DNA of 64,000 bases. Source: Sedimentisphaerales bacterium. GTDB lineage: Bacteria > Planctomycetota > Phycisphaerae > Sedimentisphaerales > SM23-30. The stretch is from assembly GCA_963666285.1 (NCBI GenBank), contig OY762711.1; one strand, given 5' to 3'. Position 1 is the first letter of the stretch. Every line of letters starts with the position of its first letter. The notes under the pieces are model-generated. The model had not been told where the DNA came from. It made no database searches and saw only the letters and a program-made list of their open reading frames with translations. The translations under genes and the position numbers were made by a program. This document shows positions 47,955 through 53,873 of this stretch, piece by piece.

Positions 47955-49496
47955 ATGCTCGCACGTATAATTAGTTCGGCAATGGTGGGAATTGAAGCGA
48001 TTACCTGCGAAGTTGAGGTGGATATTCCTGATGAGATTGGCGAAAAGGATAAAAACAGATTTGTGGTCGTGGGCCTTCCGGATGCCGCGGTTAAAGAGAG
48101 TATCGAACGCGTTAAGAGTGCTGTTAATAATTGTGGTTATACCTTTCCGATGGGCGAAGGTGTTATAAACCTCGCTCCGGCAGATATTAAAAAGGAAGGT
48201 CCATGCTATGATCTGCCTATCGCGCTGGGGATACTATGCGGCATGAAATATCTGTCATACGAAAAGCTACGCGATACTGTTGTGATAGGCGAGCTGGCTC
48301 TCGATGGCAGGGTCCGACCTGTTCGGGGGATACTTGCTGCCGCTCTTATGGCAGCGAAAATCGGCTGTAAAACAGTTATCGTGCCGGCAGAAAATGCTCG
48401 TGAAGCCGCTGTGGTCCAGGAGGTAGATGTTATTCCGGTTTCATCGCTGAGCGAAGCGGTTGGTTTTTTGAACGATCATCTTCCTTTGGAACCAACTTGC
48501 GTTGATATAGATGAGGTTTTTGCGGTTTGCAGCCAGTATGATATTGATTTTTCAGATGTAAAAGGGCAGGAATCGGTTAAGCGGGCAATTACTATCGCTG
48601 CCGCCGGTCGGCACAACATCTTAATGGTAGGCCCACCCGGAACCGGCAAGACAATGCTGGCAAAACGGATACCAACTATTATGCCTCCGTTGACCGTTGC
48701 TGAGTCGCTAGAGACCACCCGTATCCATTCGTCGGTCGGTCTGTTAGCGCCGCAGCAAGCCTTGCTTGCCCGTCGGCCGGTTCGCCATCCTCACCATTCA
48801 GCGAGCGGGCCGTCACTTGTCGGCGGAGGCGCCGTGCCTCGGCCGGGTGAGCTTTCGCTGGCCCATCATGGTTTGTTATTCCTAGATGAGTTTCCAGAAT
48901 TTTCACGTAACGTTCTGGAAAATATTAGACAACCGCTTGAAGATAAACAAGTTACAATCAGTCGAGCTGCTGGCACGCTAACCTTTCCGGCTAATTTTAT
49001 GCTGGTCGCAGCTATGAATCCGTGCCCTTGTGGGTATGCTACCGACCCCAAGCGGCAGTGTAAATGCAGTCCGCCGCAGGTTGACCGTTACCTGGCGAAG
49101 ATAAGCGGGCCGCTTGTTGACAGGATCGATATACATATCGATGTTCCTGCGGTACCGTTCAATGCACTGCAAAGTGACAGGACGGGTACCGGTTCGTCGC
49201 ATATGCGTGAGCAGGTAATGAACGCTTGTGATGCACAACGTCGCCGTTTCGGTGATGTGCCGAACGCATATAACTCGGGTATGACCAGCAGGCAGATCCG
49301 TCAATTTTGCCGACTTGACGAATCCGGTCAGGCCGTAATTAAGAACGCTGTTTATGAGATGGGTTTGTCGGCCAGGGCCCATGATAATATCTTGAAGATA
49401 TCGCGTACGATTGCAGACATGGAAAATTCCGATGCGATTTGTGCCGAACATTTGCAGGAGGCGATCCAATACAGGAGATTAGATCGTCAGTATTAA
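47955..49496 (+). CDS. comM: YifB/ComM Mg-chelatase-like AAA+ ATPase
   Basis: VGLPDAAVKES, GPPGTGKT, LAHHGLLFLDE, AAMNPCPCG, RIDIH, LSARAHD. Confidence 0.95.
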   Translation: MLARIISSAMVGIEAITCEVEVDIPDEIGEKDKNRFVVVGLPDAAVKESIERVKSAVNNCGYTFPMGEGVINLAPADIKKEGPCYDLPIALGILCGMKYLSYEKLRDTVVIGELALDGRVRPVRGILAAALMAAKIGCKTVIVPAENAREAAVVQEVDVIPVSSLSEAVGFLNDHLPLEPTCVDIDEVFAVCSQYDIDFSDVKGQESVKRAITIAAAGRHNILMVGPPGTGKTMLAKRIPTIMPPLTVAESLETTRIHSSVGLLAPQQALLARRPVRHPHHSASGPSLVGGGAVPRPGELSLAHHGLLFLDEFPEFSRNVLENIRQPLEDKQVTISRAAGTLTFPANFMLVAAMNPCPCGYATDPKRQCKCSPPQVDRYLAKISGPLVDRIDIHIDVPAVPFNALQSDRTGTGSSHMREQVMNACDAQRRRFGDVPNAYNSGMTSRQIRQFCRLDESGQAVIKNAVYEMGLSARAHDNILKISRTIADMENSDAICAEHLQEAIQYRRLDRQY

Positions 49497-50293
49497 AGTG
49501 TTCTGAATTAGAGTGTTCTAATAAATGAGTTATTGGCGTTCAACAGTTGTTTCGATATTCAATTTTTAAAGATCATATTTATTTTTGAGACGAAGTTTTC
49601 GTCGTTGTTAAGTTTTGTAGAAAGCTGATTTTTGTTGGTTCTTATTTTTTGTTAGCTCTCTACAATAGGATGGTATGTCGAAAGTGCGCTGATTTTTTGG
49701 GCGGGATGGTTGGCCCGAAAAATTGTAAGGTGTTGGGAGTAAGCGGGATAAAATTTTTGGGAATTATAGATTTTCATGATTTGGTGGTTGTAAAAACGCG
49801 GTGATTTTTTCGAGAAAATCAGGGGCCAGGGATCTGGTTTCAGATGTCAGGGAAGGTTGCTCGCTACCGCTCGCGGCTGATTGATGGGTGGCGGGAGGTG
49901 TGCGGAAAGGTAGCGGGGCAGCGCGGCGGGTGAACGGCGGCGAAAAGAGAAACGGATTTGAGCGGAGGCGTATTGCGGGCTGCGGACAGTATACGGCGGA
50001 ACGTTGAACAGGTACGGAAGCCCAAACACGGTCATGGCGTGGGAACGCGAATGTAGGTAATAAGTAAGAGGTAAGAGGTAAAAGTTGAGGTGTCTTGATG
50101 TACGTTGACATCAGGAATAATTCGCTGACGCAAGCTATTTTAAATCGCCTTCGGCGAAGAAAGAGCTAAACCACGAATAAGCTATGGTAACCGGAGCCTC
50201 CCGGTTAATTCAGGATCGAGTATAATATAATACGACGTCCTATTTTAAACGTGCTCGAAGCACAAACAATAAACCTTATTGGAGGCCCCAGTT

Positions 50294-51337
50294 ATGATTA
50301 AGTATATCGGATTAGATATGGATAGCAAGAAAACAGTTTCAATGGTATATGAAAATGGTACAGAGAAGTACGCGACATTACCTCCTGACATTGGCAGTTT
50401 GCAAGATTTTTTGATAAAGCATAAGTCTAAGAAGAATAAGGTATTTGTGGCGTTTGAGGTTAGCGGTTTGGCCGGTTGGATATATGATCAGATAGTTGAC
50501 CTGGTGGATGAAGTGAAGGTAGTGAATCCCACCAAAGCTACCTGGATATATCGTACCAATAAGAAAAACGATCGAATAGATGCGCGTAAGATGGCGATTT
50601 TGTACAGTATTGATGAATTGCCAAGTGTTTATATGCCAGATAAGGCGGTAAGGCAATGGCGTCAGATGATATTGCATCGCCAGAAGACGGTACGTAAAGT
50701 TGGCCAGACCAAGAATCAGATAAGAGCGTTGATAAAGAGCAATGGCTATTTAGTGCCAGAGCATAAAGGCACCTGGTGGAGCAAGAAGAATCGAGTCTGG
50801 ATGGAGAGCTTAACAAAGTCAAAAGAAGATGTACTGTGGAGTCTTCAGTTGGAAGATTTACTTGAACAGTTAAAATTACTGGAGAATCAAAGAGATAAGA
50901 TAACAGCCAGACTGGATGAGAAGATAAAAGATAATCCGGGTGCGGAATTATTGATGAGTATTCCCGGGGTTGGTCCAAGGACAGCTGAGGCCATGCTTGC
51001 TTATACAGATGATATAGACAGGTTTAGTAACTATAAGCAATACAGTGCCTACTTTGGCTTAACGCCAAAGCTGGATGAGAGCGGTTCGACTCGCAGATTG
51101 GGACATATCAGCAAGCATGGTCCGCAGGTAGTGCGATGGGCATTATGTGAGTCAAGCTGGCGTGTTGTGAGGTTTTGCCCGGCGATAAGGCAGTTTTATG
51201 AGCGGGTAATGGCTGGTCAGGACGGCAGGAAAAAGATAGCGATAGTTGCGGTAGCACGTAAGTTGACATCGATAATGAGAGCGATGTTGAAGACAGGCGA
51301 GATGTTTAACGCAGAAATGATAAATCAGGCTGCATAG
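50294..51337 (+). CDS. IS110 DEDD recombinase/transposase
   Basis: GLDMD, AFE, KNDRIDA (DEDD), SIPGVG, GLTPKLDESG (catalytic Ser), AVARKL; GGAGG RBS before ATG at 50294. Confidence 0.95.
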   Translation: MIKYIGLDMDSKKTVSMVYENGTEKYATLPPDIGSLQDFLIKHKSKKNKVFVAFEVSGLAGWIYDQIVDLVDEVKVVNPTKATWIYRTNKKNDRIDARKMAILYSIDELPSVYMPDKAVRQWRQMILHRQKTVRKVGQTKNQIRALIKSNGYLVPEHKGTWWSKKNRVWMESLTKSKEDVLWSLQLEDLLEQLKLLENQRDKITARLDEKIKDNPGAELLMSIPGVGPRTAEAMLAYTDDIDRFSNYKQYSAYFGLTPKLDESGSTRRLGHISKHGPQVVRWALCESSWRVVRFCPAIRQFYERVMAGQDGRKKIAIVAVARKLTSIMRAMLKTGEMFNAEMINQAA

Positions 51338-51353
51338 AAGACAATATAATAAA

Positions 51354-51530
51354 GGCTGAGCGACTATGCCGTAAGATCCCGGTGAATGTCAATTGAAGTT
51401 TAAGTTTACTTAAAACCTCGTCACGAAGAATGGGAGTTACGGTCTGTATAAAGTTTAATGTGCCGCCGAATAAGGTGAGTACGAATAGGAGGTTAGGTCG
51501 TTGAATGCCTGCCAAAAGCAGCTCAGTTAA
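51354..51530 (+). ncRNA. candidate bridge/seek RNA of the IS1111-type element
   Basis: Two stem-internal-loop-hairpin modules whose loops carry CACGAA (matches target flank) and ATAGGA (matches donor end). Confidence 0.65.
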
Positions 51531-52586
51531 TAAAATATGAGGCCTCTGCCTCAGCTCAAAAGCTAACAGGGTTAGCCCCTGTAACTTCTTACGCCATCGG
51601 CATCAGCCCATGTTTGGGTGAGAGCTGACGCCGAGGCGACGAAGCTACAGGGGCAAAAACCCAGGAAATTTGATAAAAATGTAAAAAAGAAGAAAAACAA
51701 CTTGAAATGCTCCGGTTCATAGGATGGACACGAATTCACACCAATAATATATAAGGTGACTCGCTACCGCTCGTGTTATTTTCATGCTCAGCCGAGGACG
51801 GCTAAGCTACTATGTCCTTAACGATGCTGGTTTGGTTGGAGATTGGAAGGATATTATGCAGAGTGGTTTTGATAGGATTTATCTCTCGCAAAGGGCGCAA
51901 AGATCGCAAAGTGTTATTGTGGAATATAACACTGACGGTCACGGACAGGCACAGACAAACACGGCAGGCAGGAAACAGCGAAATAGCGACCAGCTATCAG
52001 CTATCAGCTACCAGCAAAAAGCATATTAACTTCGTGCTTCGCACTCTGGCACATCATTGGACAAGTCCAATGATGTGGAGGTGTCGCTACGCGACCTGTT
52101 TTAAATAATGTGTCGAGCTCCGCCTGAGGCGGATTTTATTCTGCTCGGCGTTGGCAGGGGTGAAGGATGGGTTAAAAAATGGAATTGAATTGAAGGGTGC
52201 GGTGATATAAGAACAGGTGCATGGAGAGTTGCGGAGGTAGTGCGGCGGGCGGGGGATTTTTCGTGAATTGATGTAAGTTGTTATTTTTGGTTTGTGGGCA
52301 GACCAGACAGGTGCCGTGAAACGGCATCAAAGTGTAAAGGGTAAAATAAAAAGTGTAAAGGATGTGTCCTGATGTACGTTGACATCAGGAATAATTCGCT
52401 ATTGCTCACAACTTGTTTTAAAGCTGACGCATAGGTAAAGTTCAATCAAAATTGCGGCACCTGAAGGATGAAAAGAGTTAGAAGCGAGGAGAGAGTAGGG
52501 AGGGGAGAAATTAAAAATTAAAAATTCAGAATTAAGAGAGCGCCAAGCTAAGCTGGTGCAGTCAAGCCGGTCAATCCGGTAAGGGT

Positions 52587-52796
52587 AGTCGCCAGACCAG
52601 GAAATACTGCAAGCTGAATGAGCAGGGCAAAGCCATGATAAAACAAGCAGTCTATGAACTAGGCATAAGTGCCCGGGCACATGATAAGATTCTGAAAATA
52701 TCACGGACGATCGCCGACCTTGAAGATTCTGATAATATCCAGGCTCATCACATTGCGGAAGCTATTCAATATAGACGGCTGGATAGGGAGTTTTAG
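52587..52796 (+). pseudogene. diverged copy of the comM C-terminus
   Basis: SRQTRKYC...GISARAHDKILKISRTIADL...EAIQYRRLDREF*; 48/69 aa identical to the ComM tail by hand alignment. Confidence 0.9.
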
Positions 52797-53012
52797 CAAA
52801 TTTATAACTTTACAAATAGTATTGCTTTAGGTTAAATTGTATCTGATACCGGAAACAGAAATAAAGCATTAGAAATGTATGCCTGTGCAAATAAAATAAT
52901 GCCGACATTGAATAGGGTGATATGTCTATTTACAGTTTCGCGTGATGAGATTAAGAAGTTCAAACCTGATTTACGATAATCATATTTGAAAATATAGAAA
53001 GGGATTAAGATT

Positions 53013-53873
53013 ATGAAACGTACTCTAACAATTTTATTATCGACCGGTCTAGTATTATTTGCCTTTGCGGAAAAAGCTAATGCTGTATATAACTCTGAAA
53101 CAGGTCGCTTTATGCAGCAAGACCCGTTGGGGACAGTGCCAGAGGGATATGGAAATAAATTTAATTTTGTTGAGCAGAATACAGATGGGGTAAATAGTTA
53201 TGTATATGTTAGAAATAATCCAACAGTATATGTCGATAGTACTGGGCTAGTTTGTGGAGTTACGATATATCGACAAAAATTTGACGGAAAGTATATCGCT
53301 AAAGGGGGAGTTGCAGGAGATATTGATAATGATGGTACAAGTGATGGGGATCCGACTAAAGGACGTGAATGGATAGAGTGGAATGGCGGCTCTTTTGGGT
53401 GGTATCCTGTGGAAGACGGGGATGCAAGGGGTTTATATAGTGGCCAAGAAGGGTATTTACAAAACCCTGATGAAAAAGAAGGTAAGATATGGACAATACT
53501 CCAGCCAACAGCTTGGGATCACTCGCCAAACAAAAGTATTGGTCATGGCCCAAAGGCTGGAATCTCGTGTGAATGCATTGATAAATGTGAAGATATTAAT
53601 GAATGTATAAGTTCGTTATTGAACAAGAATATTCATGGTACTTGGGGAGGTGGAGGCCTTAATGCTGTTTTAATGGCAGAGGGTGGTATATGTGGGCAGC
53701 CCGGACCAGCATATGAAAATTCAGAAACTGAATTCAAGATAAATCGTGGACATTGCAGAGATTTTGTTAATTATGTACTTGAGACATGCTGCTTGAAAAA
53801 AACTAGTTTTTGGAAGGAGTATGTAAATGGAAAACCCGAGTGGCAAAATGTTGGATATCCAAGACAAAAATAA
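53013..53873 (+). CDS. secreted mini-RHS protein: signal peptide + RHS-associated core motif + Cys-rich C-terminal toxin-like domain
   Basis: MKRTL...ANA signal, then YNSETGRFMQQDPLG...DGVNSYVYVRNNPTVYVDSTGL. Confidence 0.8.
   Translation: MKRTLTILLSTGLVLFAFAEKANAVYNSETGRFMQQDPLGTVPEGYGNKFNFVEQNTDGVNSYVYVRNNPTVYVDSTGLVCGVTIYRQKFDGKYIAKGGVAGDIDNDGTSDGDPTKGREWIEWNGGSFGWYPVEDGDARGLYSGQEGYLQNPDEKEGKIWTILQPTAWDHSPNKSIGHGPKAGISCECIDKCEDINECISSLLNKNIHGTWGGGGLNAVLMAEGGICGQPGPAYENSETEFKINRGHCRDFVNYVLETCCLKKTSFWKEYVNGKPEWQNVGYPRQK

What the first reader, a model, noticed from the sequence alone, without database searches (positions are those of the whole stretch)
51354..51530. Candidate bridge/seek RNA with target and donor guides in identical register
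Seen (hand-folded): outer stem GCTGAGC/GCTCAGT. Module 1 is closed by CCGTAA..TCCC/GGGA..TTACGG with inner hairpin TTTAAG/CTTAAA; its loop strands carry TGTCAAT (51387; reverse complement of target ATGGACA with 1 mismatch) and GT-CACGAA-G (51422; equals target left flank plus core A). Module 2 has inner hairpin GTGCCGCC/GGTGAGTAC; its loop strands carry AGTTTA (51452; pairs with donor TAAGCT with one G:U) and GA-ATAGGA-G (51485; equals donor end ATAGG plus core A). Both 3' guides end at the core A and are followed by G. Known: IS110/IS1111 recombinases are RNA-guided. Inference: a programmable recombinase with an AT core aimed at a repeat family.
Basis: partly seen in the sequence, partly recalled or inferred. 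Interest (0 to 1): 0.82.

Follow-up and report, generated by a model that had tools for sequence, protein, structure and literature searches.

The report
IS1111-type bridge RNA with handshake guides
The non-coding tail of this jumping gene very probably encodes a folded guide RNA that spells out both its landing site and its own ends; this kind of system has been known since 2024, so it is a clear new example rather than a new mechanism.

Summary
Real, and a known kind. Window 50177-51723 is a 1,547-bp IS1111-group element with four genomic copies, a DEDD/Ser recombinase, sub-terminal repeats with 7/3-bp extensions and a junction promoter, inserted in a repeat family. The flagged tail folds into a target loop and a donor loop, and the fold covaries across 46 relatives. 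Across 69 RNA clusters both target guides covary with the insertion sites in one register only (p about 0.0003). Only the 3' guides share a register; the 5' donor guide sits one base off. Only the A is shared at every junction: 10 of 78 loci differ at the second 'core' base. Read on the opposite DNA strand the layout matches IS621: the G after the A corresponds to G80/G165, and the next two bases are handshake guides. The donor-loop handshake base equals target base +2 in 56 of 59 clusters, including all five where that guide base is not U. Expression and activity are not shown. This scan has noted IS1111 guide RNAs in other genomes before (22 notes fit the search words).

The parts
50177..51723 (+). 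IS1111-group insertion sequence, 1,547 bp, one of four copies in the genome
   Evidence: Four copies at 99-100% identity and empty alleles of the repeat define the ends
50171..50176 (+). Left target flank CCACGA (positions -6..-1)
   Evidence: Same in 3 of 4 copies; the fourth has CCACTG
51724..51731 (+). Right target flank ATGGACAC (positions 0..+7); the AT belongs to the target
   Evidence: Empty alleles; position +1 varies independently at the two junctions in relatives
50177..50183 (+). 7-bp left terminal extension; 50178-50183 (TAAGCT) is the -10 box of the junction promoter
   Evidence: 7/3 rule from PMC11187229 section 4
50184..50197 (+). Left sub-terminal inverted repeat (9-bp perfect part at 50189-50197)
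50294..51337 (+). IS110-family recombinase, 347 aa; D8, E55, D93, D96 and S263
   Evidence: PF01548 + PF02371, NF033542 217 bits vs cut-off 140; residues invariant in 12 of 12 aligned and in register with IS621
51355..51527 (+). Predicted bridge (long seek) RNA, closed by outer stem 51355-51361/51521-51527
   Evidence: family fold
51387..51393 (+). [quoted passage not shown]
   Evidence: Covariation at +2..+7, p = 0.0003 each, n = 59
51422..51428 (+). 3' target guide (RTG equivalent): -5..-1, A at 0 (51427), G opposite +1 (51428, G80 equivalent, unpaired with the T/A core base)
   Evidence: Covariation at -1..-4 p = 0.0003, -5 p = 0.016, n = 55; IS621 numbering
51429..51430 (+). Target-loop handshake guide AA; equals left end +2,+3
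   Evidence: 56 and 55 of 56 agree, but both sides are nearly invariant and +2 is part of my parsing anchor
51452..51457 (+). 5' donor guide (LDG equivalent): reads left end +6..+1, one base offset from the target loop
   Evidence: Paired fractions 0.86-1.0 at +2..+6 in this register; total p = 0.0007, single columns weak
51485..51491 (+). 3' donor guide (RDG equivalent): right-end ATAGG, A at 0 (51490), G opposite +1 (51491, G165 equivalent)
   Evidence: Invariant in the close clade; equals the right end in 11 of 16 distant loci across three end variants
51492..51493 (+). Donor-loop handshake guide GU; the G equals target +2
   Evidence: 56 of 59 clusters, null 0.80, p = 0.0003; second base shows no covariation; five changes on the tree
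51543..51665 (+). Long accessory hairpin between the RNA and the right end; role not resolved
51702..51707 (+). -35 box TTGAAA, 17 bp from the -10 box once the ends are joined
   Evidence: TTG at 17 or 18 bp spacing in 52 of 53 clusters
51709..51723 (+). Right sub-terminal inverted repeat (51709-51720) and 3-bp terminal extension (51721-51723)

Best explanation
The region encodes the two-loop guide RNA of an IS1111-group element, and it works like the IS621 bridge RNA with the DNA turned round. Shown by sequence comparison: element ends, target, fold, pairing of both target guides, and one handshake base. Inferred from known family members: the element circularises, the joined ends form a sigma-70-type promoter, and one transcript carries the recombinase and the RNA. 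The target loop opens the repeat site and the donor loop opens the circle junction. S263 cuts between positions -1 and 0 on the strand paired with the 3' guides, and bases 0..+3 swap loops. For this element the handshake bases make no Watson-Crick pair before the swap and three after, which favours insertion over excision. The G opposite +1 is kept although the DNA no longer pairs with it, probably because the protein reads it, as it reads G80/G165 in IS621.
For: Target guides covary with sites in one register only (total 6.78 vs 5.02 +/- 0.19, n = 59; 4.56 vs 3.45 +/- 0.12, n = 55; similar at 80% clustering). In 23 of 26 close pairs with different guides, each guide fits its own site better than the partner's (2 worse, 1 tie). 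Two copies in G138 at 91% DNA identity carry different guides and sit in matching sites. Fold: 94% of cells paired, 25 of 40 pairs with two-sided changes, 0 of 500 shuffles as high, slid controls 35-45%. Donor-loop base +2 equals target +2 in 56 of 59, never pairs with its own donor (0 of 56), and changed five times on the tree (at least three forced), with a matching target in all five rows where the target is known. In distant relatives it matches in 8 of 16, with all four bases represented. Position +1 differs between junctions in 10 of 78 loci, as expected if positions 8-9 travel with the exchanged strand (PMC11208158).
Against: No expression, circle or activity data. This copy's 5' target guide mismatches +2 in 4 of 4 insertions and does not pair beyond +6; the fourth site has two left-flank mismatches. 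The single-sequence fold hides the donor handshake bases. Donor guides barely vary in the close clade, so their covariation is weak. The second handshake base of the donor loop does not covary (16 of 59, null 0.32). Three clusters with U at the handshake base have a non-T target base, and 8 of 16 distant loci do not match. The conserved A-G-A after the 3' guides was part of my parsing anchor, so its invariance (68 of 68) is partly by construction. Permutation tests treat related elements as independent.
Confidence: 0.88

Rival explanations
1. Seek-only model: only the target loop (about 80 nt, processed from the long RNA) guides; the ends are recognised by the protein at the sub-terminal repeats, and the second loop is a vestige or scaffold.
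For: Short seekRNAs with only target matches dominate and were sufficient for ISEc11 (PMC11187229 sections 8, 14). Target-loop-only RNA was 90% of bound RNA for CazIS110-1. Donor-guide covariation is weak in the close clade.
Against: The donor loop is the most conserved part (helices 98% paired). Its 3' guide tracks the right end across ATAGG, ATAGA and ATGGA variants (11 of 16). Its +2 base tracks the target, which needs contact between donor loop and target. CazIS110-1 excision and integration required the full RNA.
Confidence: 0.08
2. The family has the guide RNA, but this lineage's RNA is degraded (extra U, +2 mismatch, shifted outer stem) and the copies spread earlier or with help from another element.
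For: Mismatch at +2 where 53 of 59 clusters pair; long branch of 0.58 on the tree; outer stem aligns poorly to the family. Two other IS110 families occur in the genome.
Against: Four copies at 99% or more with identical protein and guides; all four sites fit these guides; no site with a perfect 5' match exists in the genome (0, against 5 empty sites with G at +2). Three other relatives show the same extra U. The other two families have their own ends and insertion points.
Confidence: 0.03
3. The folds are terminators or processing signals and the short matches are chance.
For: Each 5' match alone is common in shuffles; terminator-like hairpins occur in the right end on the - strand.
Against: Register-specific covariation with sites in unrelated genomes and the swap test; all four matches together in 1 of 20,000 shuffles.
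Confidence: 0.01

Closest known systems
IS1111-family seekRNA elements ISEc11, ISKpn4, ISPa11, ISPst6 (Siddiquee et al. 2024, PMC11187229; read: abstract, sections 4, 6, 8, 9, 14)
   Same: Long non-coding region downstream of the gene, sub-terminal repeats with 7 and 3 bp extensions, junction promoter, top-strand match 5' of bottom-strand match, RNA of about 170 nt like the long seekRNA, repeat-family target as for ISPa11.
   Different: The sections read describe target matches only and leave the long RNA's role open; here a donor loop and a handshake base are resolved by covariation. No RNA was sequenced here.
IS621 bridge RNA (Durrant et al. 2024, PMC11208160, passages and part of section 43; Hiraizumi et al. 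2024, PMC11208158, passages and section 8; PMC13626964, passages)
   Same: Two loops, four guides, D-E-D-D plus Ser; on the opposite DNA strand the order LTG, RTG, LDG, RDG, the A-G end of RTG/RDG and the handshake dinucleotides fall in the same places; more handshake pairs after exchange than before.
   Different: RNA in the right end inside a three-way junction; core reads AT rather than CT, with the RTG/RDG G unpaired; longer right guides (5+1) and shorter left guides; a one-base offset in the left donor guide instead of the two-base bulge in RDG; protein only distantly related (E = 5e-17).
[quoted passage not shown]
   Same: Bridge RNA predicted in the right end of 93% of IS1111 elements, with target and donor matches.
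   Different: The text says many IS1111 donor nucleotides lie in a multi-loop; here the donor guides lie in a simple internal loop. Registers drawn in the figures could not be compared.

Membership tests
IS110 family | DEDD RuvC domain plus Transposase_20 domain with catalytic Ser | tested here: met
IS1111 group | Sub-terminal inverted repeats, usually 11-13 bp, near perfect | tested here: met
   12 matching bases with a 2-base insertion on the left; 9 bp perfect
IS1111 group | Terminal extensions of 7 bp left and 3 bp right | tested here: met
   50177-50183 and 51721-51723
IS1111 group | Long non-coding region downstream of a 330-350 aa gene | tested here: met
   386 bp right, 117 bp left, 347 aa
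IS1111 group | Promoter formed at the circle junction | tested here: met
   Motif only: -35/-10 at 17 bp; TTG at 17-18 bp in 52 of 53 clusters; activity not tested
IS1111 group | Circular intermediate | tested here: inconclusive
   No such joint listed in contigs of three DNA runs; contigs drop rare forms
IS1111 group | Transposase falls in the IS1111 clade of ISfinder references | not tested
   No reference set in the tree; C-terminal motif GLTP...SG fits the IS1111 pattern quoted
seekRNA (IS1111 type) | Top-strand target match 5' of bottom-strand match, overlapping at the insertion point | tested here: met
seekRNA / bridge RNA | RNA is expressed and co-purifies with the recombinase | not testable with these tools
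   Needs a pull-down and small-RNA sequencing
bridge RNA (IS621 type) | Second loop pairing with both strands of the donor junction | tested here: met
   3' guide tracks the right end in 11 of 16 distant loci; 5' guide pairs at +2..+6 with weak covariation
bridge RNA (IS621 type) | Handshake guides pairing with the non-cognate DNA after exchange | tested here: met
   First donor-loop base covaries (56 of 59, p = 0.0003); second does not; target-loop pair agrees but is invariant
bridge RNA (IS621 type) | Identical two-base core on target and donor, paired by all four guides | tested here: not met
   Only one base is always shared; +1 differs in 10 of 78 loci and the 3' guides pair +1 in 3 of 56-59. 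This bars filing it as an IS621-group member, not the likeness of mechanism
bridge RNA (IS621 type) | Reprogrammable by changing guides | not testable with these tools
   Natural guide/target changes only

The most novel reading that the evidence does not exclude
IS1111-group right-end RNAs use the full IS621 strand-exchange logic on the opposite DNA strand, handshake guides included, so the reported 'reversed order' of seekRNA matches is a change of reading strand and the long seekRNA is the functional bridge. This clade has also moved from a CT to an AT core by changing only its left guides, keeping a protein-read G mismatched in both right guides, which leaves one obligatory shared base and would widen target range.
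Probability: 0.6. Interest if true: 0.55.

Novelty: new member of a known kind. Interest (0 to 1): 0.38.

Why it matters
RNA-guided recombinases are being developed as genome-editing tools, and the mechanistic work I could read rests on IS621-group enzymes. The seekRNA paper states that the IS1111 mechanism cannot be assumed to be the same and leaves the long RNA's role open. This clade supplies about 100 natural guide/target pairs, a base-level map including a handshake position, and specific mutations to test, so that question becomes directly testable. The window copy itself is an ordinary, slightly imperfect member.

Tried and rejected
Rfam: 3 matches in 49400-53100, all far below gathering scores. 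Genome-contig scan with the single protein: 1 weak locus of 127 stretches. Viral contigs: 0 of 11 stretches. Sequencing runs: no RNA holder listed; 3 holders, one study; this says nothing on expression. Contigs of those runs show an empty-site joint 50176-51724 in 2 of 3 runs (one sample), which may come from paralogous empty repeats, and no circle joint; not used as evidence. Plasmid search: best hits about 31% identity, all rows with a name read IS110 family transposase. Other registers: shifts of one base gave no comparable signal for the target guides; one gave p = 0.027 in total. My first anchor for the 5' target guide was one base off for the family and was redone. The idea that the handshake G overrides the mismatched 5' guide at +2 cannot be tested here, because the genome has no site with T at +2. 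A bulged-base reading of the 5' donor guide versus a simple offset could not be decided. A possible extra helix crossing the outer stem is only 77% paired and is not claimed. The careful tree did not finish; the quick tree was used. The sigma-70 scan did not list a promoter directly upstream of the RNA on the + strand.

Full report
1. Observation. The + strand of 51354-51530 folds better than shuffles (z = -2.62; 2 of 200 as good) and the - strand does not (z = -0.85). The four guide matches together occur in 1 of 20,000 dinucleotide shuffles, but each 5' match alone is common, so the single sequence is suggestive and the case rests on relatives.

2. The element. The upstream gene (50294-51337, 347 aa) hits PF01548, PF02371 and NF033542 above cut-off. 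D8, E55, D93, D96 and S263 are invariant in 12 of 12 aligned relatives and in register with IS621. The genome holds four copies with identical protein; the window copy differs from the other three at 10 silent sites, and one copy has one further change that turns a G-C into G-U in the target-loop stem. Empty alleles of the surrounding repeat give the ends: 50177-51723. The ends carry sub-terminal repeats with 7 and 3 bp extensions, the IS1111 rule in PMC11187229 section 4. Joining the ends puts TTGAAA 17 bp from TAAGCT; TTG lies at 17 or 18 bp in 52 of 53 clusters with both ends. Five exact empty targets remain in the genome.

3. Relatives and rows dropped. Loci came (130 loci; one search kept the best 80 of 197). 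Of 129 with a tblastn hit, 19 were set aside at under 45% identity, 7 lacked the target-loop anchor and 2 the donor-loop anchor, leaving 101, or 69 clusters at 90% RNA identity. Hand edits: left ends re-parsed for L038, L045, L101; left end of L043, right flanks of L047 and L080 and left flank of L104 dropped as duplicated or inverted element ends; the last right end used for L081 and L104; the four own copies set one base over because of an extra U before the stem. L043, L045 and L047 show the same extra U and were left uncorrected. The anchors fix A-G-A after the 3' target guide and the G after the 3' donor guide, so those invariances are partly by construction; the donor-loop +2 base is not in an anchor.

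4. Fold. For 46 sequences under 85% identity, RNAalifold gives an outer stem enclosing two hairpins, each with a large internal loop. The named structure has 94% of cells paired and 25 of 40 pairs with two-sided changes; 0 of 500 shuffles reach this, and slid controls give 35-45% (the structure came from this alignment, which favours it). The window copy's own minimum-energy fold mispairs the end of the donor loop.

5. Guides. Position 0 is the shared A. [quoted passage not shown] The 3' target guide matches the left flank at -1..-4 (p = 0.0003) and -5 (p = 0.016, n = 55). Both hold at 80% clustering (n = 28), except -5. Among 26 disjoint close pairs with different guides, own sites fit better in 23, worse in 2, tie in 1. 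The 3' donor guide equals the last five bases of the right end; it is invariant in the clade and follows three end variants in 11 of 16 distant loci scored (24 rows examined, 8 not parsed). The 5' donor guide pairs with left-end +2..+6 only when shifted one base relative to the target loop; covariation is weak because the end hardly varies. So the register is identical on the 3' side only. This copy's 5' target guide mismatches +2 in all four insertions.

6. Core and handshake. Position +1 differs between the two junctions in 10 of 78 loci, so only A0 is always shared. Turning the DNA round makes the 5' guides LTG/LDG and the 3' guides RTG/RDG of IS621. A0 becomes T9 and +1 becomes position 8; the G after the A becomes G80/G165, which in IS621 pairs with C8 and hydrogen-bonds to the protein (PMC11208158 section 8); the next two bases become the handshake guides. 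Distant relatives mostly have G at +1 and pair it. In this clade +1 is T in 56 of 60 targets and 52 of 55 left ends while the RNA keeps G. The first donor-loop handshake base equals target +2 in 56 of 59 clusters (null 0.80, p = 0.0003): U/T 51, G/G 3, C/C 2, misses 3. It never pairs with its own donor (0 of 56). On a quick tree the non-U state needs five changes, at least three forced by strong branches. In distant loci it matches in 8 of 16; three of the misses are one element family and three are mis-anchored rows. A third IS110 family in this genome shows the same pattern by eye. The second base does not covary (16 of 59). Handshake pairs are more numerous after exchange than before in 49 of 49 clusters, partly by construction; for this element 0 before and 3 after.

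7. Mechanism. Shown: ends, target, fold, target-guide pairing, 3' donor-guide tracking, one handshake base. Inferred from IS621, ISEc11 and CazIS110-1: circle, junction transcript, tetramer, serine-linked strand exchange, bias to insertion. Whether excision is cut-out or copy-out is open; the CazIS110-1 preprint argues for copy-out (abstract and section 5). Confidence 0.88; rivals are a seek-only RNA (0.08), a decayed lineage (0.03) and chance (0.01).

8. Known systems and novelty. It meets the IS1111-group features tested and works like an IS621 bridge RNA, but lacks the strict two-base core, so it is not an IS621-group member. Right-end bridge RNAs with donor matches were already predicted for 93% of IS1111 elements (PMC11208160 passages). 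Searches for 'handshake' + 'IS1111' (4 papers) and 'IS1111' + 'HSG' + 'bRNA' (3 papers) returned the two IS621 structure papers, one review (PMC13604230, passages) and one preprint seen only as a listing. In the passages read I found no handshake analysis of IS1111 elements, but PMC13626964 calls the pattern highly conserved among IS110 elements, and the IS622 preprint does not mention IS1111 in its main text. Figures, supplements and most subscription papers were not seen and may already cover this. Earlier notes of this scan list IS1111 guide RNAs in other genomes; none overlaps this sequence.

9. Verdict. A real guide RNA, new member of a known kind. Interest 0.38; the handshake and single-shared-base reading for the IS1111 group, probability about 0.6, would merit 0.55.

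Noticed in passing
G000 C1 3248297-3250720: A copy of a second IS110 family interrupts a spacer of a 14-repeat CRISPR array next to a 1,290-aa ORF that looks like Cas12a (label recalled from its start and the repeat, not scanned); the spacer carries the same repeat motif these elements target.
   Followed up: partly
G000 C1, e.g. 714620, 3804332 and the window: Three distantly related IS110-family elements (4, 9 and 3 copies; 34% and 23% identity to the window's) all insert in the same ACCACGAA repeat module (123 matches in C1), at different points and, for one family, in the opposite orientation; each has its own matching guides by eye.
   Followed up: partly
window 51543-51665; L139:1501-1614; L132:1501-1633: Long hairpin between the guide RNA and the right end. 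A 74% relative on contig C4 lies about 230 bp upstream of an ORF that looks like another IS110 transposase; a 72% relative in G312 has no such gene nearby. Many relatives carry a different, shorter hairpin at this place. No Rfam match.
   Followed up: partly
alignment A2, columns 14-18 with 202-206: A possible extra helix crossing the outer stem in the family (77% paired, 3 of 5 pairs with two-sided changes): pseudoknot or alternative fold.
   Followed up: partly
window 49550-52500: The element sits in a mosaic of non-coding repeat modules present dozens of times in the chromosome, behind a Mg-chelatase-like gene (47955-49496); a short stretch at about 52600-52795 resembles the 3' end of that gene (by eye).
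   Followed up: no
L003 and L023 (G138): Two 91%-identical elements in one genome carry different target guides and sit in matching different sites: natural reprogramming.
   Followed up: yes
L015, L025 (G145); L081, L104: Duplicated left ends or repeated right ends next to the element, suggesting insertion into its own ends or tandem remnants.
   Followed up: no
window 50596-51283: The window copy differs from the other three copies at 10 silent sites, and contigs of the public runs mostly show the other alleles.
   Followed up: no
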